IMG/VR virus record: IMGVR_UViG_3300037488_003551
Coordinates: 1-64,000 of that record
Origin: a virus
Strand: one strand, 5' to 3'
DNA: 64,000 nucleotides
The notes below the pieces were generated by a model. That model made no database searches. It saw nothing but the letters and a program-made list of their open reading frames with translations, and was not told the origin of the DNA. Positions 2,446-56,042 of this stretch are shown here, in pieces. How positions within the stretch are numbered: position 1 is the first letter of the stretch; the number at the start of each line of letters is the position of its first letter. Made by a program: the position numbers and the translations under genes.

Positions 2446-4474
2446 TTCTTATGACCTCCGGTGAAACAGTTTCTCGGCTGATGTTGGACCGGTGTATACA
2501 CCCGGCCGCCCAGGGAATAATCTTTTCCTTCAAGCAGTCCGCGTAGCGGTTACAGAGAGCACAGCTCACTTTTTCCGTGAGCATTTTAGCGATATCTTCT
2601 CTGTTATCCAGTGCCACGAGCTGCTGAATCTCGACGCTATCCCGGGCGCACAGACGATATACGACGGTCTTCCGCGTTTGCCCTATCCGATATTCTCGGG
2701 CTCGGGATTGCAACCAGTGCTCCAGCGACCAAGATCGACTGTAATACACCGCGTAGCGAGAAGCCACGAGATTTATTGCGATGCCTGTGGATTCTTGCCC
2801 GAGATACGCGCGACAGTTAATATCCGTGCTGAAATTATTGACGAGCGTCTTTATGCGATGCGTTGATGACCCGTCTACGCGCACGTATGCGTAGTTTAAC
2901 TTTTTCAGAAGCTTCTCAATGTCATCCATCTCCGCCATCATATTTGCCCAAATGACAACTTTTTCTTCTGGGTTATCTAAGAGGTCTTCTAGAAGGTCAC
3001 TCAAGGCCTCGAGCTTAGGATTATGTGTATATCTGAGTGTGTTCTTTTCGAGCATCTCTCGAAGCTCTTCGTAGCGCTCGCACTGCTTCGTTCCTGGAGC
3101 GATACTGTTACGGACACAACGCATAACATACTGACATATGTCGCAAACTTGACCCATAGTTTCATCTTTTAGATACAGAAAACCGCTGCATATTTGGAGA
3201 AGTTTGTTTAAGCGGACGCCACCGTTGAGATTCGAAAGCTGTCCGTATTCTCCAAAGTCTAAGTCAACGCGCTTTACGAGGGCGTTATAGTCCCTGAGCT
3301 GTTCCGGAGACAGAGTAAACATTACATCCACATCTCTAAGCTCCGGTAAATCAACGCAATCATCTATAAGCTTTTCACTCGAAAGGCTGTTAATGCGTTG
3401 GCTAATGATATTGAGATGCCGGTATCCTGTTATTATGTGCGCGTTCGTAGGGGATGTAATACAGAACTTATTCGCGTATTCCATATAGTTTTCGGGGCAC
3501 ATATATTTGGCCAAGGCATTCATCTGGGGATAAAGGTCCAAAGGATTTCCCATGCTGATAGTTCCAGTGAGTAAGTAGCGCCGCGCTGCGTGTTTACAGA
3601 GCTCCATGACCGCCTTCGTACGCTTACTCTTGATATTTTTTATGCGATGAGATTCATCTAAGATAATGATTTCATACGGAAAATCTGTAAGACAAAAGTC
3701 CTTAGATAGCGCTGCGACCTTACACTTGATAGCCGCGAGGGACACTAAATTTTGATAATCATCTAGAATCTCTAGCGCATTTTTCTCTGTTAAACCCTTA
3801 AGGAGTTTTTGTACCGCGAGTGGCACAGGGAGTCGACCGGTTTTTAGGCGTTTAATCACTGGAGCTGGAACTGTGTGGACTCCGTAAAGACGTGCGGCAT
3901 CGTAGGTTGTGAGCAGAATATCACAAGGACCCGCTATAGCTTTTTCTAAAGCTTCGAGTTTCTTTTGCCGCGTGGTCCCTTTGAGAACTGCAGCTTTTAA
4001 AGAGCCGTTGGAGTGGAGCTCTATCTCGGTAATCCAATTGTCGATGGCAACTACCGGTGCGATGATAAGAGTTTTCTTGCGCAGCTTATTTAAGGCTTCA
4101 ATTGCAACCTTTGTTTTCCCTGTCCCCATTTCCCAACGTAGCGCCCAGCGATAGTTGTACAAAAGTTCTGCAATTCCTTCGTTTTGATGTTCGTAGTTGG
4201 GGTAGGGGCCGAGAGGAGGGGTGGACTGGACCTCCGACAAGAGCTCCTCGTAGGAGCGTATTTTAGACAGGTATGCCCGAGCCTCATCGCTGTACTGGAC
4301 GCCTAAAGCCGCAAAATCATTTTTTACTTTCTCCAGAAATGGGGGGTATGCGGGATACATCCAAGCATTGTATTGTTTCAAATAGGTGCCTCCGTAGATT
4401 CGAGATAAGATATCGAGATTCCCCGTGATAATAAATGCGGGAGTCCTTGCTGAGAGTACAAACGTAGCTTCCAT
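2423..4474 (-). CDS. SNF2-family (SF2) helicase with Cys-rich insertions
   Basis: EMGTGKT Walker A, DESH, LTGT, KLLQICSG, GIAINL, AREYRIGQ; CDIC/CALC pairs. Confidence 0.9.
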   Translation of the reverse strand: MEATFVLSARTPAFIITGNLDILSRIYGGTYLKQYNAWMYPAYPPFLEKVKNDFAALGVQYSDEARAYLSKIRSYEELLSEVQSTPPLGPYPNYEHQNEGIAELLYNYRWALRWEMGTGKTKVAIEALNKLRKKTLIIAPVVAIDNWITEIELHSNGSLKAAVLKGTTRQKKLEALEKAIAGPCDILLTTYDAARLYGVHTVPAPVIKRLKTGRLPVPLAVQKLLKGLTEKNALEILDDYQNLVSLAAIKCKVAALSKDFCLTDFPYEIIILDESHRIKNIKSKRTKAVMELCKHAARRYLLTGTISMGNPLDLYPQMNALAKYMCPENYMEYANKFCITSPTNAHIITGYRHLNIISQRINSLSSEKLIDDCVDLPELRDVDVMFTLSPEQLRDYNALVKRVDLDFGEYGQLSNLNGGVRLNKLLQICSGFLYLKDETMGQVCDICQYVMRCVRNSIAPGTKQCERYEELREMLEKNTLRYTHNPKLEALSDLLEDLLDNPEEKVVIWANMMAEMDDIEKLLKKLNYAYVRVDGSSTHRIKTLVNNFSTDINCRAYLGQESTGIAINLVASRYAVYYSRSWSLEHWLQSRAREYRIGQTRKTVVYRLCARDSVEIQQLVALDNREDIAKMLTEKVSCALCNRYADCLKEKIIPWAAGCIHRSNISRETVSPEVIRSGNHYNR

Positions 4475-4534: not shown

Positions 4535-6268
4535 ATGACTACGATTTCCGATACGACGTTAATGGCCACGGGTGGATTGGGTCACTCTAACCCATACTTC
4601 ACCTATAGTCAGCTCTTTGCTCCCAAGCGATTGAAGGAACTTTTCAAGATGTGCGAGTACCTGTTTTATAACAGCCCACACATCTTCGCAGCCCTTCGAA
4701 AGTTTGGAGAATATCCTATAACAGAGATTACGTATGATACGGATAATATTCAGTTAAAAGAGAAGCAGAAGAGTCTCCTAGAAAAGGTTGTCCGCGCAAA
4801 AGAATTTCTGTTGAAATCCACGCTGGATAAATATATTTATGGAAACTCCTTCACTTCTATGTACCAACCGTTCGTCCGTTATTTGACTTGTCCAAAGTGC
4901 AAGGCGGCTACGAATATCAAGTTCGTGGACTATTCTTTTACACTGCAAACTTTAACGTTTGCTTTTAAATGCCCCGCCTGCGAGCGTCAAGTAACTGTGG
5001 GTGAAGATAACGTTGAGGACCGGAAGCTGATGCTCACGAAGGACATCAACTTCATTCGCTGGGACCCCAAGTGTATCGACATCGAACACAACGTTTTTAC
5101 AGGAGAATCCGTTTACTATTATTCGATTCCTTCGGATACGGCAGCGCAGGTTCGACGCGGGCAGAAGCATATCATCGACACGACGCCCTGGGGTTTTCTG
5201 CAGGCTATCAAAGAGCACAAGCCTTTTAAGTTCGCCCCCGAGGCCCTCTTCCACATGAAATTTTGTGCGCCGGCCGGTGTGAACCCGCAATGGGGCTTGC
5301 CGCCCCTCCTCCCAGCGCTCGACCGCTTTTTCTATACGCAGGTGTTGCGTAAAGCGAATGAGGCTATTGCGCTCGAGCATCTCGTGCCCTTCCGTATCGT
5401 GTCCCCCGCGGCGACGTCGAGTAGCGGAGACCCCATCCAGTCTATCAACCTCGCCCGGTGGATAGACAACATGAAGAAGAACGAGCAGGACTGGCGCAAC
5501 GACCCGCTGCACATCATGTACGCGCCCATCCCCGTGGCTGTCTCGCAGTTGAATGGGCAAGGACGAGCTCTTCTCACCCTCGGAGAAGTCCAAGAGGCAG
5601 AGAAGTCCCTCGTGGCTGCCCTTGGAATTCCGCTCGAGTTCCTCTATGGCGGACTCACGGGTCAGGGCATGAGCGCGACCTTGCGCATGATTGAGAACCA
5701 GCTGGCGACGCATGTCAGCGACCTCACGGACCTCCTTCAATGGATGACGGATTCCTGCAGCAAGTTTTTGGGGTGGGAGTCCATTCCGGTGGGACTTATT
5801 CCTTTCCGGATGGTGGACGATAATGAAAAGAAGGGAATGCTTTTTCAGCTCTGGCAAGCGGGACTTCAGGGAATGGGACCTCAGACAATTTCGACGACAA
5901 CGATGGCCGAAATCAACGACATCGATGTGCAAAAAGAGTATGGAAGAATCAAAGAAGAGACGTTGCAAAATGCGCGTCGGACGCAAGAACTGCAGCGTGA
6001 GATGCAGAAGATTCAAAATACGATGGCCCAGCAGATTCAGCAGGAGGCCGGCGCCGGAGCTCCACAAGGCTATGACCAGCAGCAGGTCATTGCGAACGCT
6101 GACAATTTGGCACAGCAGTTTTCACAGATGGACCCCTCGACGAGAAAGAGCCAGCTTCACCAGCTTCAGATGGAAGACCTCGTAATGTACTCGGTGGTCA
6201 TTCAACGCCTTGAGCAACAACAGACCGTGGCGCGGCAGCAAGCAACCGTGCAACAGGGGGCAATGTGA
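4535..6268 (+). CDS. Portal protein with Zn-ribbon insertion and Q-rich C-terminus
   Basis: D.YIYGNSF, FIRWDP..I.I, FHMK, WGLPPLL and SLVAALGIPLEFLYGG resemble large-phage portals; first gene of the head operon; CPKC..CPAC insert. Confidence 0.75.
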   Translation: MTTISDTTLMATGGLGHSNPYFTYSQLFAPKRLKELFKMCEYLFYNSPHIFAALRKFGEYPITEITYDTDNIQLKEKQKSLLEKVVRAKEFLLKSTLDKYIYGNSFTSMYQPFVRYLTCPKCKAATNIKFVDYSFTLQTLTFAFKCPACERQVTVGEDNVEDRKLMLTKDINFIRWDPKCIDIEHNVFTGESVYYYSIPSDTAAQVRRGQKHIIDTTPWGFLQAIKEHKPFKFAPEALFHMKFCAPAGVNPQWGLPPLLPALDRFFYTQVLRKANEAIALEHLVPFRIVSPAATSSSGDPIQSINLARWIDNMKKNEQDWRNDPLHIMYAPIPVAVSQLNGQGRALLTLGEVQEAEKSLVAALGIPLEFLYGGLTGQGMSATLRMIENQLATHVSDLTDLLQWMTDSCSKFLGWESIPVGLIPFRMVDDNEKKGMLFQLWQAGLQGMGPQTISTTTMAEINDIDVQKEYGRIKEETLQNARRTQELQREMQKIQNTMAQQIQQEAGAGAPQGYDQQQVIANADNLAQQFSQMDPSTRKSQLHQLQMEDLVMYSVVIQRLEQQQTVARQQATVQQGAM

Positions 6269-6807
6269 TGAAAAGTTTTATTGACGCTATTAACGATTCT
6301 AGAGCAACGTCTATTGCCGAACCCGTTGCGCCCTTGGATAACGTAGCGATGTTCATGCCCGAAGCTAAGAGCGTCCTAAAAGGAAAACAGACAACTTTTG
6401 GGCAAGGTCTGAACTGTAACGGACATTCAAAAGTGTTCGTTCTTTGGCGTCCGTGGACTCAATGCCATCGCTGTCTTAAAAAAATAGAGCACGGAGAATT
6501 TGAGCTCCCGGATGTGGGAGACCATGAGTGTCCGCACACCATGCGTGAGGACTATGAAGCCATTTTAGATAGCGGCCTTCGGGGTGACGTTCTTTTTCAA
6601 ACACAGGAATACTTCACGCTCCATGACGGCACGCGCTGTTGCCACGCTGTTTGGTTGACTATGGATGCCAAAGTATCGGAGTTGGCCGCAAAAAGGCAGG
6701 AGGTCGCCGAGACTTTTTCCCCGTTACATTCCTCGATAATCGCGGAGATGAAAGCGGAGGCGGCGAAAAAAGAAGCCCTGGAGGCTTCTGAGGACGAACC
6801 TCAATGA
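6265..6807 (+). CDS. Hypothetical protein (Cys/His-rich, possibly metal-binding)
   Basis: Translationally coupled to portal; CHRC..HECPH. Confidence 0.6.
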   Translation: MMKSFIDAINDSRATSIAEPVAPLDNVAMFMPEAKSVLKGKQTTFGQGLNCNGHSKVFVLWRPWTQCHRCLKKIEHGEFELPDVGDHECPHTMREDYEAILDSGLRGDVLFQTQEYFTLHDGTRCCHAVWLTMDAKVSELAAKRQEVAETFSPLHSSIIAEMKAEAAKKEALEASEDEPQ

Positions 6808-6809
6808 TT

Positions 6810-6829
6810 CTGCCTCCAGGGCAGGTTTT
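6810..6829 (+). terminator. Short GC hairpin plus T tract, possibly bidirectional
   Basis: CTGCC-TCCAG-GGCAG-GTTTT between convergent stops. Confidence 0.4.
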
Positions 6830-6887
6830 AGCGACGCAGCACGGCTATTAGCAGCGCTGCCAGAATCATTGCGGGCTGGATGACCAT
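6828..6887 (-). CDS. 19-aa hydrophobic peptide MVIQPAMILAALLIAVLRR (type I toxin-like)
   Basis: Not in the ORF track; perfect SD AAGGAGGTGA 6 nt upstream; own promoter motif at 6938-6953. Confidence 0.65.
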   Translation of the reverse strand: MVIQPAMILAALLIAVLRR

Positions 6888-6937
6888 TTGTTATCACCTC
6901 CTTTCATGGGGGGTGACAGTAGTGGTCTCCTCTCTAG

Positions 6938-6953
6938 TTCTTGTACCCAAAAT
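6938..6953 (-). promoter_or_regulatory. Putative phage promoter ATTTTGGGTACAAGAA (GGTAYAAG class)
   Basis: Identical 16-mer at 48369-48384 on the + strand. Confidence 0.6.
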
Positions 6954-6964
6954 CGAGGTCACAT

Positions 6965-9900
6965 ATGAAACTGATACCTATCCTTCAAAACCCCAATGAG
7001 AAGCGTGAGCGCATCCGCGATAAAGTAATTGAAGGACTGACCGAGTCCTTTCCGATTACAGCACGTAATAAAATTATCGAGGTCACGGATGTTTCTTTTA
7101 CTCCGAGAGATTACACCTCGAACGAGCAGAAGATGGCCATCCTTCGGGGAGATTCTCTTTTTGAGACAGCGAAGGGTACGGTACGTATAAAAGATGCGAA
7201 AACAGATAAGGTTTTAGACGAGGCTAAAAATTTCACTCTCGCCCGCGTTCCGTGGTTCACTCCGCGACATACGCTCATCGTTGCTGGAAATGAATATTCG
7301 ATTGCGAACATGGTACGGCCAAAGCCAGGCGTGTACGCACGTAAGAGGGCTAATGGAATCCTCGAAGCTAGTTTTAATACTGTCGGCACCTCGAACTTTA
7401 ATGTCACCATGGACCCGGAGAAGGGAGAACCAGAGCTCGAGTACGGTTCTTCCAAAATACCTCTTTACACAATTCTCCGAGCCTCGGGAATCTCCCATGA
7501 CGCTATCGCTAAAAAGTGGGGTAGTGCACTAGCGAACGAAAATCAGAAGCGTCTTGAAAAGAATCTTCCGCAGCATGTCGACAAGCTTTATCGAAAAGTA
7601 GTTCCTGCTTACGCTATCCTTCCAGATATGACCGTGGACTCCAAGATGGAGGAGGTCCTTGCGCGGTATAAAAAGGCGACGATGGACCCAAAGGTTAATG
7701 AGAAAACCTTGGGAACAGCGTACGGGCATGTGACTCCTGATAGCCTCCTCGACGCTTCGGCAAAGGTGCTTAACATTTTTCGTAATCCCGAGGAGGTCGA
7801 TGACCGCGATAACCTCGATTTTAAATCGTTGCGTTCTGTAGAGGACTTTTTCAAAGAGCGCATTCAGCTAGACGCTCGGGATATCGGTCGACGCGCTGCT
7901 ATAAAAATAGAGAATACACCAGAGGTTCGGAAAGCTATGGCCTCGGGAGCGTTTACACCGGGCCTCGTCAAGTTCATCACAGGCTCTCAGCTCGCGGCAA
8001 TTCCTACACAGACGAATCCGATGGAGCTCATAGATACCGCGGTGCGCGTAACGTCGCTAGGCGAAGGCGGTATCAGCTCTGAACGTGCCATCCCCATGGA
8101 AGCGCGGATGATTCATCCAACACAGATTGGGGCGCTTGACCCTGTCCGTACCCCAGAATCTTTTCGCGCAGGTATCGACGTACGTGCGGCGCTATCGGCT
8201 GCACACGATAAAGATGGAAACATTTTTGTCCCGATGCTTGACACCAAAACGGGGAAACAAACCTACATACGTGCAGGAGAAATTGCAACTTCGACTGTAG
8301 CGTTCCCACAACAGGTTATGAAAGGGAAAATTTCAGCTCTGGTAAATGGCAGAATTGCTACGGTGCAAGCGAATAAAGCCCAGTATCAAATTCCCCATTC
8401 TTCGGTGATGTACGGTCCGACCTCAAACCTCATTCCTTTTATGGAGTCTCTGCAGGGTAATAGACAGCTGATGGGGTCGAAGCATCAGACGCAGGCCATC
8501 TCTCTCGTGGACAGGGAAGCTCCTTATGTGCAGGTGATGTCTCCCAGCGGTAAATCTTTCGAGCACATTATGGCTACGGTTGTGAATCCCACGTCTCCTG
8601 TAGCGGGGACGGTTGAAAAAGTAGACGGAGATTATATCTATATTCGTCCGAATGCTAAGACGGCGGCGGAAACAAAACCCGAGCTTGTCCGAGTTTCGTA
8701 CGATACATATCTCCCTATGGCAGCGAAGACATATCTGAATCATGACGTTACGGTAAAAGCGGGGGACTCCGTAAAAGCGGGAGACATTCTAGCTGAATCT
8801 AACTTCACGAAAGATAAGACGCTGGCCCTGGGTAAGAATCTTTCAGTTGCGTATATGCCCTATTACGGTGCGAATTCAAACGACGCCGTCGTTATCAGTT
8901 CCGGGGCGGCAAAAAAGTTGACGTCTGAGCGTCTCTACAAAATTGTTCTCCCGCGCGACGCTGATATCGTTTTTGACCGAACGAAACATAAGACGTATTA
9001 CGGGCATACATATGGGCACGATTATTACGGAGGAGTAGATGAAGAAGGAGTGGTAAAGCCAGGGGCAAAGATTAATGGGGGAGAGCCTGTTGCTTTTAGT
9101 CTCCGTAAATCTACACTTACTTCCGACGATATTCTTTTGGGGCGTCTGCATAAGTCTCTCGTGCGTCCATTCCGAGACGCAACACAGACTTGGGACCACG
9201 ACCACCCCGGGGAAGTGGTGGATGTCGTTAAGACTCCAAAGAGAATTGCTATAACAATTAAAACGCAAGAGCCTATGCAAATAGGAGACAAGCTCTGCTA
9301 TACCGAGGATACGGAGGTTTTAACAACTAATGGATGGAAATACATTAGCGATATTTCAAAAGAAGATATTTGCTATACACTCGATAGAGAGGGATTCATT
9401 CACCTCTGCCGCCCTACACATTTTCACGCCTATAACTCTGCTGATAAATTATTTTTGGTGCGGTCACAACAAGTGGACCTCTCTGTTACGCTAGACCACG
9501 GACAAGTCGTAAAAAAAGGTGAGGGAAACCAACTCACCCCTTCACATGAATTACTCGATAAACCTTTTCAGTTAATTCGCACAGGTACTTGGGCTCCGGA
9601 GAGAGCGTATGACGCAGATGACGCGTGGTGTGCGCTTATGGGTCTCTACGCCGTAAAAGGGCATACCAGAATTCCCGAACTCGTACAGGGAACTTTTGAG
9701 CATGTTGTTGAAATCTTTCTGCGCGAGAAGCTCCAAGAAGGAGAGAAGTTGTGGTTAGAGGGGATTTTAGGAAAATTGGGAATGACAGATAAGAGCCGTA
9801 TCGACGATGACATTCTTACGATTAATGACCCAGTTCTATATGCAGAGTGTCGGACTCTAGGAGATATCGTCGAACGGCGCCTCCCTAAATCAGTCTTTTC

Positions 9901-48262: not shown

Positions 48263-48368
48263 GCTCTAAATTAGGTTCCCCCAAGTACGAATGCTGAGCA
48301 GTTATCTTCTGCACTATCCGTCCACGTGACGTAAAAAGATGGGGGATTTCTATTCAAAAAATCAACCC

Positions 48369-48384
48369 ATTTTGGGTACAAGAA
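48369..48384 (+). promoter_or_regulatory. Putative phage promoter ATTTTGGGTACAAGAA
   Basis: Exact copy of 6938-6953 (minus strand); upstream of the small-gene cluster. Confidence 0.6.
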
Positions 48385-48451
48385 TACGAGATGAACAGTG
48401 GTTGTTCACACTCAATCCACCCCGTGCTGCAGCACGGGAAAGGAGTCCATC

Positions 48452-48619
48452 ATGTTTGGAAGAGTACTCGAAGTAGGTCTGGGCGTATTTGCAGGAGTCC
48501 TGGCGGCGAAAGGCGTGGAGAAGGGGATTGAGGCGGGAGTCGATGCGTTTAAGGGGTGGCGTAAGTCCGGGGCGGAAGCCCGAGAGGCCAAGAAGGAGGA
48601 AAAGAAAAAGAAGGAGTAG
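48452..48619 (+). CDS. Small membrane-associated protein with basic tail (55 aa)
   Basis: Hairpin plus AAAGGAG SD; VGLGVFAGVLAA. Confidence 0.6.
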   Translation: MFGRVLEVGLGVFAGVLAAKGVEKGIEAGVDAFKGWRKSGAEAREAKKEEKKKKE

Positions 48620-48641
48620 CAGAGTAAGTGGAACGAGTTCC

Positions 48642-48709
48642 GAAACCCGCTGAGAGGGGAGACACCGGTCTCCTCTCTGAGCTCCTCCCCTCTGGGCGGG
48701 TTTCTTTTT
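48642..48709 (+). terminator. Rho-independent terminator (branched stem)
   Basis: GAAACCCGC...GCGGGTTTC followed by TTTTT. Confidence 0.7.
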
Positions 48710-55686: not shown

Positions 55687-55769
55687 TTAGCGGTATAAGA
55701 AAAAGTCTTTCTGGGGGATTTTTAAATCAAGCGAATAAACCAAGTCAGACCCAACCAAGAAAAAGGAGA

Positions 55770-56042
55770 GTGATGATGGTCCACGAAGCAGTGAAGTGGG
55801 AGACGGAGAGCTTTGGGCGGAAAATCTTAACTGAAACAGTTATGGAAGGTGGACAGGTATTACGAACGCAATCACTGCGCGTGCGTAAACATCCGACGTC
55901 AAATGGGATTAGATTTGTTGCCCTTTTGACGACTGACTTTGATGCATATGACGGATTTACAGGTTTTGTCTGTCCTTTTTGTGGGAGCACGGAGAGGACA
56001 AATTGTTGTCAGTGTGCCAACTGTGGAGTGACGCGATGGTAA
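55770..56042 (+). CDS. Hypothetical Zn-finger protein
   Basis: CPFC..CANC; GGTATAAGAA at 55692 upstream. Confidence 0.5.
   Translation: MMMVHEAVKWETESFGRKILTETVMEGGQVLRTQSLRVRKHPTSNGIRFVALLTTDFDAYDGFTGFVCPFCGSTERTNCCQCANCGVTRW

What the first reader, a model, noticed from the sequence alone, without database searches (positions are those of the whole stretch)
6810..6953. Hidden antisense mini-gene: 19-aa hydrophobic peptide with sequestered SD (type I toxin-like)
Seen: on the minus strand between the portal operon and the RNAP gene there is a complete unit. It runs promoter motif (6938-6953), hairpin TCACCCCC-ATGAAA-GGAGGTGA that masks a perfect SD (7 of 8 pairs), ORF MVIQPAMILAALLIAVLRR, then a hairpin. 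Known: Ibs-type type I toxins are 18-19-aa hydrophobic peptides with translationally repressed mRNAs controlled by antisense RNA. Inference: this is a membrane-active peptide whose antisense partner could be read-through of the structural-operon transcript. Its promoter would also fire against transcription into the RNAP gene.
Basis: partly seen in the sequence, partly recalled or inferred. Interest (0 to 1): 0.7.

Follow-up and report, generated by a model that had tools for sequence, protein, structure and literature searches.

The report
Conserved micropeptide gene facing phage RNAP

Summary
On the minus strand there is a promoter motif (6947-6938), a leader hairpin over a near-perfect Shine-Dalgarno site, a 19-codon ORF (6887-6828) and an intrinsic terminator (6822-6766). 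It is far more than chance. The same unit stands at the same junction in 49 of 52 distinct related loci (0.8 expected). The ORF shows coding-type selection: pN/pS is 0.11-0.45 within subclades, third codon positions vary most, and stop codons interchange. The promoter motif recurs in front of 11 other genes of this genome, always pointing at them.

The type I toxin reading is only partly supported. This phage's peptide is Ibs-sized and hydrophobic. However, the family's shared part is a 9-residue N-terminal core. Most homologues have 9-13 residues, some of them charged, and only 12 of 43 reach the minimal Ibs-like size. Masking of the ribosome site is not above shuffled controls and is not conserved. 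No dedicated antisense promoter is seen.

Best reading: an autonomous, vertically inherited micropeptide gene of the early/middle promoter class, inserted into the portal-RNAP operon, whose peptide is the functional product. A new feature is a covarying helix between ORF codons 6-9 and the terminator interior.

The scan has noted similar antisense mini-gene cassettes on other DNA.

The parts
6938..6954 (-). Promoter: T-rich stretch plus GGTACAAGAA (core 6947-6938), an extended -10-like element of a phage-wide promoter class
   Evidence: The motif GGTA[TCA]AAG has 26 sites in the 172.9-kb genome, and 11-12 of them lie in the 11% that is intergenic. Every intergenic copy points at a same-strand SD+ORF. 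It is kept on the minus strand next to the RNAP start in 88 of 114 related loci and never on the plus strand.
6925..6934 (-). Predicted transcript start and invariant leader (GAGAGGAGAC in the 76-100% clade). The TSS position is inferred (about 6933-6930).
   Evidence: Columns 1-10 of alignment A2 are invariant in all sequences. RNAalifold pairs this stretch with the terminator U-tract. No RNA data are available.
6894..6916 (-).
   Evidence: 7 of 8 pairs, -7.8 kcal/mol, and present in the MFE folds. SD accessibility equals shuffled controls, and there is no covariation or conservation beyond close relatives.
6893..6903 (-). Shine-Dalgarno site AAGGAGGTGAT, 5 nt before the ATG
   Evidence: An AAGGAGG-type SD 5-8 nt before the start codon is kept across the family.
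6828..6887 (-). 19-codon ORF (stop included) encoding a hydrophobic micropeptide with two C-terminal Arg
   Evidence: Present in 49 of 52 related loci, with lengths of 9-19 codons in that 53-100% clade and 7 and 9 codons in two 46% relatives, and a core of M-x-I-x-x-[LI]-x-[IL]-[LFV]. pN/pS is 0.26 in the window clade and 0.11-0.45 in the others, against 0.88 and 1.33 in shifted frames. For codons 10-19, 13 codon differences are synonymous and 4 are not.
6861..6871 (-). 5' arm of a long-range helix, lying in ORF codons 6-9
   Evidence: It pairs with 6812-6802 (11 bp, -15.8 kcal/mol). In A2, 4 of the 10 tested pairs change on both sides and 87% of cells are paired, against 50% or less when the partner is slid.
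6802..6812 (-). 3' arm of the long-range helix, inside the terminator hairpin. On the plus strand it covers the last sense codon and the stop codon of the upstream 180-aa gene.
   Evidence: U.G wobbles on the minus-strand RNA would be A.C mismatches on the plus strand.
6766..6822 (-). Intrinsic terminator T1 (stem 6822-6812 with 6785-6775, U-tract 6774-6766). An alternative short terminator T2 lies at 6789-6771.
   Evidence: The T1 stem is 100% paired in 7 sequences with one compensatory change, at -29.1 kcal/mol. T2 was found by the scan, at -9.9 kcal/mol. The whole-transcript folds with T1 and with the helix plus T2 are isoenergetic at -68.9 and -68.2 kcal/mol. Every family member has a hairpin plus T-run 33-92 nt after its stop codon.
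6265..6807 (+). Upstream convergent gene (180 aa, unknown function). Its last 14 codons overlap the mini-gene terminator.
   Evidence: No Pfam or PHROG family.
4535..6268 (+). Portal protein gene
   Evidence: 30% identity over 562 aa, E = 4e-105, to the annotated portal of Salmonella phage Arash.
6965..12319 (+). Fused RNAP beta / beta'-N-terminal gene, divergent from the mini-gene. True ATG at 6965, with a GAGGT SD.
   Evidence: Pfam Rpb2_6, Rpb2_3, Rpb1_1 and Rpb1_2; sequence.

Best explanation
This is an autonomous micro-gene: one promoter, one strong ribosome site, one 19-codon ORF and one terminator. It is inserted backwards between the portal-side genes and the RNA polymerase gene of a roughly 173-kb uncultured phage.

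Shown:
- The unit is conserved at this junction throughout a clade of related phages.
- The ORF is under purifying selection as a protein-coding sequence.
- Its promoter belongs to a class that in this genome drives only non-structural genes.

Inferred:
- It is transcribed as a roughly 165-nt RNA before or independently of the structural genes.
- It is translated into a micropeptide that is itself the functional product.
- The shared 9-residue N-terminal core, with Ile at position 3 and hydrophobic residues at positions 6, 8 and 9, docks onto a conserved hydrophobic site of a host or phage partner.
- In this phage's clade, a selected hydrophobic C-terminal extension ending in two basic residues makes the peptide membrane-partitioning.
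- Late plus-strand transcription across the site, which the mainly one-way terminator would not stop, would silence it by antisense pairing and head-on collision.
- The mRNA can flip between two isoenergetic folds. One of them ties ORF codons 6-9 to the interior of the terminator hairpin, which probably limits translation of the finished transcript.

I put about 0.9 on 'real, translated, selected gene' and about 0.4-0.45 on 'trans-acting, membrane- or hydrophobic-site-binding peptide'.
For: - Anatomy.
- Conservation: 49 of 52 loci against 0.8 expected, and no other frame is kept open.
- Coding selection: entropy by codon position 1/2/3 is 1.46/1.09/1.80. pN/pS is 0.63 against 0.88 and 1.33 in shifted frames. 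Subclades give 0.11, 0.26, 0.42 and 0.45. Six-fold Leu and Arg synonyms interchange, and so do TAA, TAG and TGA.
- The clade-specific C-terminal extension is also selected: 13 synonymous against 4 nonsynonymous codon differences. This argues for a mature peptide rather than only a nascent N-terminus.
- RNA structures differ between clades while the peptide core is universal.
- Promoter class: intergenic enrichment and consistent orientation. Its genes include a DHH nuclease, a DinG-like helicase, TnpB and small unknown proteins, and no structural genes.
- Inserted nature: in phages Arash and D181 the portal, small gene and RNAP are directly coupled with no gap.
- One-way terminator.
- Hydrophobicity: GRAVY 1.79, and 13 of 15 residues hydrophobic.
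- Covarying ORF-terminator helix and bistability.
Against:
- No homology to any protein of known function could be sought for so short a peptide.
- Most homologues (9-13 residues) cannot span a membrane, and some are charged, so 'membrane peptide' cannot be the family-wide mechanism.
- The partner is unknown.
- The minus-strand promoter is kept even in distant relatives that lack the mini-ORF. There it drives 180-335-aa genes or abuts the upstream gene. The promoter itself may therefore be the primary conserved element at this junction.
- The promoter's timing class is inferred only from the kind of genes it precedes.
Confidence: 0.5

Rival explanations
1. The ORF is a cis-acting regulatory device. 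What matters is the act of translating it, or a nascent-peptide effect of the 9-residue core, rather than the released peptide. Ribosomes on codons 6-9 would break the ORF-terminator helix and set which fold and terminator the RNA adopts. Together with the back-to-back promoter arrangement, this would tune transcription at the portal/RNAP junction through antisense RNA over the 3' end of the upstream gene or through promoter competition with the RNAP gene.
For: - A covarying helix links ORF codons 6-9 to the terminator interior, and the two folds are isoenergetic.
- The stop codon lies 5-20 nt from the terminator stem in many members.
- Only the N-terminal core is family-wide, while length varies from 9 to 19.
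- The divergent promoter is conserved even where no mini-ORF exists.
- Many relatives have a TATACT/TATAAT at -33 to -37 of the RNAP ATG, back-to-back with it, and the two overlap in L006.
Against: - Amino-acid-level selection covers the whole peptide, including the clade-specific C-terminal extension.
- Both folds keep a terminator, so there is no antiterminator.
- No same-strand gene lies downstream. The next minus-strand gene is about 2.3 kb away behind two convergent genes.
- The long-range helix is specific to the window clade; other clades fold differently.
Confidence: 0.2
2. This is the first reader's model: a type I toxin-like module. A membrane-depolarising peptide is made from a translationally restrained mRNA and kept in check by antisense RNA, here read-through of the structural-operon transcript.
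For: - The window peptide is 19 residues like IbsC, with 13 of 15 hydrophobic residues and a basic C-terminus (PMC8309996, PMC2887945).
- The mRNA is highly structured (z = -4.0), with an SD hairpin and a conserved helix reaching into the early coding region.
- The terminator is mostly one-way, so plus-strand transcripts would be fully complementary.
Against: - No dedicated antitoxin sRNA promoter is seen on the plus strand.
- SD masking equals shuffled controls.
- The conserved part is the N-terminal core, the opposite of IbsC's requirement for residues 6-19.
- 31 of 43 homologues are below the minimal toxic Ibs size or hydrophobicity, and some are 9 residues with 2-4 charges.
- The gene is single-copy.
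- It is a vertically inherited gene of a large phage, and it was not found in bacterial genomes with the clade signature.
Confidence: 0.12
3. It is a soluble short-linear-motif peptide. The 9-residue core, whose positions 5-9 read x-L-x-L-F/L/V in the short charged members, binds a hydrophobic pocket of a cytoplasmic protein. One candidate is a sliding-clamp-type pocket, whose known ligands are QLxLF-like; that comparison is from my own knowledge and was not tested here. Another candidate is the phage RNAP encoded next door.
For: - The shortest homologues are exactly the core and end with it (L031, L034, L052, L053, L138).
- They are not hydrophobic enough for a membrane (GRAVY 0.3-1.4).
- The gene is always linked to the RNAP gene.
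Against: - The resemblance to clamp-binding motifs is by eye only, and the otherwise conserved Gln is absent at the matching position.
- Two thirds of the family are extremely hydrophobic (GRAVY above 1.7), which suits lipid better than a soluble pocket.
- No binding test was possible, because the peptide is under the 30-residue guidance of the complex predictor and the host is unknown.
Confidence: 0.08
4. It has no function: a chance ORF next to a real promoter and terminator.
For: The ORF is very short, and no expression data exist.
Against: 49 of 52 loci against 0.8 expected, coding-type substitution pattern, and an SD and start codon kept despite full turnover of the surrounding DNA.
Confidence: 0.03

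Closest known systems
Phage 'morons' (autonomous promoter-ORF-terminator units inserted between genes of a late operon; concept from the lambdoid/HK97 literature, recalled from my own knowledge)
   Same: The unit has its own promoter and its own intrinsic terminator. It sits between two genes that are directly adjacent and translationally coupled in related phages (Arash, D181). It has the opposite orientation to the operon and a small, hydrophobic product.
   Different: Morons are sporadic, horizontally acquired and typically expressed from prophages. This unit is vertically inherited in 49 of 52 loci of a clade of large phages, is under purifying selection, and uses a phage-wide promoter class. 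Its product, 9-19 residues, is far smaller than described moron proteins.
Ibs/Sib and other type I toxin-antitoxin systems (PMC8309996, PMC2887945)
   Same: The peptide has 19 residues and is very hydrophobic. It comes from a compact unit with a structured mRNA, and there is a potential for antisense control by the opposite strand.
   Different: There is no dedicated antisense sRNA promoter. The conserved region is the N-terminus instead of residues 6-19. Most homologues are too short or too polar to be TM toxins. The gene is single-copy. Its context is a large phage, with no integrase or repressor search done, rather than a chromosome or plasmid.
Leader-peptide transcription attenuators and drug-sensing leader ORFs (e.g. 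ilv/leu leaders, Erm leaders; recalled from my own knowledge; the ErmCL sequence could not be found in the held library)
   Same: A very short Ile/Leu-rich ORF stands immediately upstream of an intrinsic terminator. Conservation is concentrated in the first 9 codons. Part of the ORF pairs with the terminator region.
   Different: No regulated gene lies downstream on the same strand. The alternative fold keeps a terminator (T2), so there is no antiterminator. The C-terminal residues beyond the core are also selected.
Small membrane-protein modulators of bacteria and small phage genes found by ribosome profiling or comparative genomics (recalled from my own knowledge)
   Same: The product is a hydrophobic micropeptide that is missed by gene callers and is conserved only among close relatives.
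   Different: At 9-19 residues the family lies below the usual 25-50 residues. It has a defined N-terminal core, a fixed genomic position opposite the RNAP gene, and an mRNA with a covarying long-range helix.

Membership tests
Type I toxin-antitoxin (Ibs/Sib type) | Small hydrophobic peptide with a TM-length hydrophobic stretch (at least 15 residues with at least 10 of IVLFCMA; PMC2887945, PMC8309996) | tested here: met
   The window peptide has 19 residues, and 13 of its best 15 are hydrophobic.
Type I toxin-antitoxin (Ibs/Sib type) | The same property holds across the homologous family, as expected if membrane insertion is the function | tested here: not met
   Only 12 of 43 distinct homologues reach 15 residues with 10 hydrophobic. 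Seven are 9 residues long, some with 2-4 charges.
Type I toxin-antitoxin (Ibs/Sib type) | Dedicated small antisense RNA antitoxin with its own promoter | tested here: not met
   No sigma-70-like site was found on either strand in 6000-7600. No copy of the phage promoter motif lies on the plus strand here or in any of 114 related loci. Only operon read-through could be antisense. This is a sequence-only test; no RNA data exist.
Type I toxin-antitoxin (Ibs/Sib type) | Translationally inert mRNA through sequestration of the ribosome-binding region | tested here: inconclusive
   The SD hairpin is present, but SD accessibility equals shuffles (0.33 against 0.32 for the window; 0.33 against 0.36 for the family). 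A covarying helix covers codons 6-9, positions +17 to +27.
Type I toxin-antitoxin (Ibs/Sib type) | Sequence requirements like IbsC (residues 6-19 needed, N-terminus dispensable) | tested here: not met
   The family conserves residues 1-9 and varies or lacks the rest (PMC8309996).
Type I toxin-antitoxin (Ibs/Sib type) | Toxicity on overexpression | not testable with these tools
   Needs expression in a laboratory strain.
Phage moron | Own promoter and own factor-independent terminator | tested here: met
   The promoter motif recurs with consistent orientation. The terminator stem plus U-tract is conserved with a compensatory change.
Phage moron | Lies between two genes that are adjacent in related phages | tested here: met
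   In Arash and D181 the portal, small gene and RNAP beta overlap end to start with no gap.
Phage moron | Sporadic, horizontally acquired accessory gene | tested here: not met
   It is present in 49 of 52 loci of the clade at the same junction and diverges along with the RNAP gene.
Leader-peptide attenuator | Alternative structure that excludes the terminator | tested here: not met
   The alternative fold (ORF-interior helix) still forms terminator T2 (-68.2 against -68.9 kcal/mol).
Leader-peptide attenuator | Regulated gene downstream on the same strand | tested here: not met
   Downstream on the minus strand lie the antisense of two plus-strand genes. The next minus-strand gene ends at 4474.
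Any Rfam RNA family | Covariance-model match | tested here: not met
   Only one chance-level hit, at E = 0.3.

The most novel reading that the evidence does not exclude
The nine-residue N-terminal core (Met, any, Ile, any, any, Leu/Ile, any, Ile/Leu, Leu/Phe/Val) is the whole functional unit. On this reading it is a stand-alone, independently transcribed gene whose product of as few as nine residues binds a conserved hydrophobic pocket of a host or phage protein, for example a clamp-type pocket or the RNA polymerase encoded next door. It could also act on the ribosome that makes it. Its bistable mRNA would restrict synthesis to a time window. That would make it one of the shortest ribosomally made, unprocessed effectors with its own promoter and terminator.
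Probability: 0.12. Interest if true: 0.8.

Novelty: new variant of a known kind. Interest (0 to 1): 0.5.

Why it matters
Genes of 9-19 codons are invisible to gene callers. Most claimed examples rest on a single sequence. This one rests on about fifty diverged loci with a clear coding-selection signature, a defined promoter class, a terminator and a covarying mRNA helix. It is therefore a well-founded test case for what very small phage peptides do.

Its fixed place, back to back with the promoter region of the phage's own multisubunit RNA polymerase gene and inside the head operon, suggests a link to the phage's transcription programme. Synthetic constructs could test that link.

The work also yields a promoter motif (GGTAYAAGAA) that is shared across a large group of uncultured phages with RNAP beta/beta' fusions. 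That motif helps annotate their early or non-structural genes.

Tried and rejected
- DNA search of the phage collection: no match.
- tblastn of the 180-aa neighbour: no match.
- Pfam and PHROGs on the neighbours and on the 180-335-aa divergent genes that occupy the same slot in relatives at 45% identity or less: nothing.
- Rfam: nothing.
- Paralogue scan of the whole genome for SD plus short ORF with the core pattern: only this gene.
- Literature search for phage Arash: no paper held. Search for the ErmCL leader sequence: not found, so the Erm resemblance stays an unverified memory lead of low weight.
- Collection scans with the clade signature (AAGGAG, 6-14 nt, ATGGTCATCCA): the pattern was too unspecific. 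After filtering, only contigs of the same phage clade carried the peptide.
- SD-masking as a selected feature: rejected.
- The overlapping 57-aa minus-strand ORF (6897-6724) and the 39-aa plus-strand ORF as the real gene: rejected, because they collapse to 4-6 codons in relatives.
- An antiterminator reading of the ORF-terminator helix: rejected, because the alternative fold keeps a terminator.
- My first constraint for that helix was off by one base. The correct arms are 6871-6861 and 6812-6802.
- Complex prediction was not attempted, because the peptide is below the 30-residue guidance, the RNAP chain exceeds the size limit, and the host is unknown.

Full report
**What is there.**
The window is the first 64 kb of a 172,892-bp IMG/VR virus record judged 97% complete. 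The genes around the finding all lie on the plus strand:
- a portal gene at 4535-6268, with 30% identity and E = 4e-105 to the annotated portal of Salmonella phage Arash;
- a 180-aa gene of unknown function at 6265-6807;
- a 1,784-aa fusion of RNA polymerase beta with the N-terminal half of beta', whose real ATG is at 6965.

In the 157-bp gap, the minus strand reads as follows:
- a T-rich stretch and GGTACAAGAA (6954-6938);
- a leader with a small hairpin (6916-6894) whose 3' arm is the ribosome site AAGGAGGTGAT (6903-6893);
- a 19-codon ORF (6887-6828);
- an 11-bp GC-rich stem (6822-6812 with 6785-6775) followed by TTCTTTTTT (6774-6766).

The unit extends to 6766. Its terminator also overlaps the last 14 codons of the convergent 180-aa gene.

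**Is it more than chance?**
No DNA-level relative exists in the named-phage collection. Using the N-terminus of the RNAP as a handle, I fetched about 160 related loci from IMG/VR and JGI metagenomes, spanning 31-100% protein identity.
- In the 53-100% clade, 49 of 52 distinct upstream regions carry a strong SD (AAGGAGG type) on the minus strand. It is followed 5-8 nt later by ATG, GTG or TTG and an ORF of 9-19 codons, with 7 and 9 codons in two 46% relatives.
- The same filter run over both strands of the whole genome gives 0.016 hits per 350 nt, so 0.8 are expected.
- No other frame across the site stays open in relatives. The 59-codon overlapping frame of the window shrinks to 4-6 codons in L006, L023 and L108.

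**It is read as protein.**
- The peptides share an N-terminal core: Met, any residue (often Val), Ile (in all 46 distinct core sequences, although my final filter required it), two variable positions, Leu/Ile/Phe, one variable position, Ile/Leu, then Leu/Phe/Val.
- Across 46 distinct 27-nt cores, third codon positions are the most variable and second positions the least. The entropies for positions 1, 2 and 3 are 1.46, 1.09 and 1.80.
- Nei-Gojobori pN/pS is 0.63 in frame, against 0.88 and 1.33 in the two shifted frames.
- Within subclades, where saturation is lower, pN/pS is 0.11, 0.26 (the window's clade), 0.42 and 0.45.
- Leu and Arg switch between their six-fold synonyms, and the stop codon alternates between TAA, TAG and TGA.
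- In the window's clade the ten codons beyond the core are also constrained: 13 synonymous against 4 nonsynonymous codon differences.
- This is the signature of a translated gene whose whole peptide matters.

**The promoter.**
- GGTA[TCA]AAG occurs 26 times in the genome. Eleven or twelve of these sites lie in the 11% that is intergenic.
- After I corrected two of my crude gene calls by reading the sequence, every intergenic copy points at a same-strand SD and ORF 15-150 nt away. Most copies have a T-rich stretch just upstream and a G two bases before the TA, like an extended -10 element.
- The genes it precedes are non-structural: a DHH-family nuclease, a DinG-like helicase, a TnpB and several small proteins of unknown function.
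- One of them, at 48375-48700, has the same layout as the finding (promoter, hairpin, SD, small ORF, terminator) and shares the extended promoter sequence.
- At the RNAP junction the motif is kept on the minus strand in 88 of 114 distinct loci across the whole 31-100% range, and never on the plus strand. Chance is 0.009 per locus.
- In relatives at 45% identity or less, the motif drives ordinary divergent genes of 180-335 aa with no known family, or directly abuts the stop codon of the upstream gene.
- The divergent promoter is therefore older than the mini-ORF.
- The motif ends in G where sigma-70 promoters almost always have T. It is also conserved across phages that are probably on different hosts. 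I therefore suspect it is read by a phage-encoded polymerase. This is inference.

**An inserted unit.**
In Arash and Vibrio phage D181 (about 33% RNAP identity), the portal, a small protein and RNAP beta overlap end to start, with no gap and no minus-strand gene. In the window's wider clade, the operon is split by this promoter-ORF-terminator unit.
- Many relatives have a positionally fixed TATACT or TATAAT at -33 to -37 from the RNAP ATG, back to back with the minus-strand promoter. In L006 the two -10-like elements overlap. The window has only a degenerate version.
- The terminator is mainly one-way: a plus-strand T-run follows the hairpin in only 11 of 49 loci.
That is plausible but untested.

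**RNA structure.**
The SD-masking hairpin exists (-7.8 kcal/mol) but is not special.
- The probability that the SD is unpaired is 0.33 in the window, against 0.32 in shuffles that keep the SD-AUG block.
- Over 47 family transcripts it is 0.33 against 0.36.
- The pairing partner differs between clades or is absent.
- The hairpin shows no covariation.

In the window's clade (7 sequences, 76-100% identity), ORF codons 6-9 (6871-6861) pair with the interior of the terminator hairpin (6812-6802; 11 bp, -15.8 kcal/mol).
- None of the ten tested pairs is invariant, and four change on both sides.
- 87% of cells are paired, against 50% or less when the partner is slid.
- No shuffle of 500 reaches the covariation score.
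- U.G wobbles on the minus-strand RNA would be A.C mismatches on the plus strand, which mildly favours the mini-gene's own RNA as the folded molecule.
- The transcript is bistable. The fold with the long terminator T1 (-68.9 kcal/mol) and the fold with this helix plus a short terminator T2 (6789-6771; -68.2 kcal/mol) are isoenergetic.
- Both folds terminate, so this is not an antiterminator.
- More likely the helix restrains translation of, or stabilises, the finished RNA.
- Other clades fold differently. The peptide core, not any one RNA structure, is the universal feature.

**Comparison with type I toxins.**
According to the literature read here, type I systems pair a toxin mRNA with a dedicated small antisense RNA. 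IbsC has 19 residues, stays toxic down to 15 residues with at least 10 hydrophobic ones, needs residues 6-19 and tolerates N-terminal deletions (PMC8309996). Fozo et al. used a 15-residue stretch with at least 10 hydrophobic residues as a TM proxy, and tandem duplication as a search criterion (PMC2887945).
- The window's peptide passes the composition test (13 of 15).
- Only 12 of 43 distinct homologues do. Seven are 9 residues long, some with 2-4 charged residues.
- The family conserves the N-terminus, not the C-terminus.
- No antisense promoter is visible.
- The gene is single-copy.
- The clade signature was found only in contigs of this phage clade.

I therefore do not file it as a type I toxin. 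A toxin-like action of the long, hydrophobic form in this particular clade is not excluded (about 0.12).

**Most likely mechanism.**
I read it as an autonomous micropeptide gene of the non-structural promoter class. It is moron-like in anatomy but vertically inherited, and the peptide is the product.
- The 9-residue core probably docks on a conserved hydrophobic site.
- The selected hydrophobic and basic C-terminal extension of this clade would take the peptide to the membrane.
- Expression is probably confined to the period before plus-strand late transcription sweeps the site.

The main rival (about 0.2) is that translation of the ORF is a cis-acting device at the portal/RNAP junction. This is supported by the ORF-terminator helix and by the older, ORF-independent conservation of the promoter. 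It is weakened by selection on the whole peptide and by the lack of any downstream target.

A soluble linear-motif peptide (about 0.08) and no function (about 0.03) complete the list.

**Earlier notes of this scan.**
A note on this genome places the RNAP in the head operon and suggests it is packaged. I confirmed the RNAP domains and the portal synteny, but not the packaging. Notes on other genomes describe similar backwards mini-gene cassettes in phage structural operons, mostly judged to be morons rather than toxin-antitoxin pairs. I used these as context only.

Noticed in passing
window 48340-48700 (+): A second cassette of the same design: the same extended promoter (ATTTTGGGTACAAGAA), a leader hairpin next to the SD, an unlisted 55-aa ORF (48453-48620) with one hydrophobic segment and a Lys/Glu-rich tail, then a terminator. 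My crude gene call had placed a minus-strand ORF here.
   Followed up: partly
window 55692-56042 (+): A GGTATAAGAA promoter followed by SD and an 89-aa Cys-rich ORF (55773-56042, CxxC pairs near the C-terminus). No Pfam family.
   Followed up: partly
genome (G000) 120380-121597, outside the window; L184:6881-8083 (-): An IS605 OrfB/TnpB-like gene (Pfam OrfB_IS605, Cas12f1-like TNB, HTH_OrfB) inside the phage genome, preceded 15 nt upstream by the same GGTATAAG promoter motif.
   Followed up: no
L029 and L057 (64-68% relatives), upstream of the RNAP gene, minus strand: These two relatives carry two tandem mini-ORFs. A 5-6-codon ORF with its own strong SD precedes the conserved core ORF, whose SD pairs with a CCTCC stretch after the stop codon.
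   Followed up: no
L058, L063, L066, L069 (about 45% relatives): The minus-strand promoter motif is kept next to the RNAP start, but with no ORF behind it. It points straight into the 3' end of the upstream plus-strand gene, as if making only an antisense RNA.
   Followed up: no
relatives L006, L010, L019, L026-L034, L052-L056 and others; window 6925-6945 (+): A positionally fixed TATACT/TATAAT sits at -33 to -37 from the RNAP ATG, back to back with the minus-strand promoter and overlapping it in L006. It is probably the RNAP gene's own promoter. The window has only a degenerate TAGTTC.
   Followed up: partly
window 6934-6925 with 6774-6767 (-): The clade-invariant 5' leader GAGAGGAG can pair, mostly by G.U, with the terminator U-tract in the RNAalifold consensus. 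This is a possible 5'-3' end contact of the mini-transcript.
   Followed up: no
   Followed up: no
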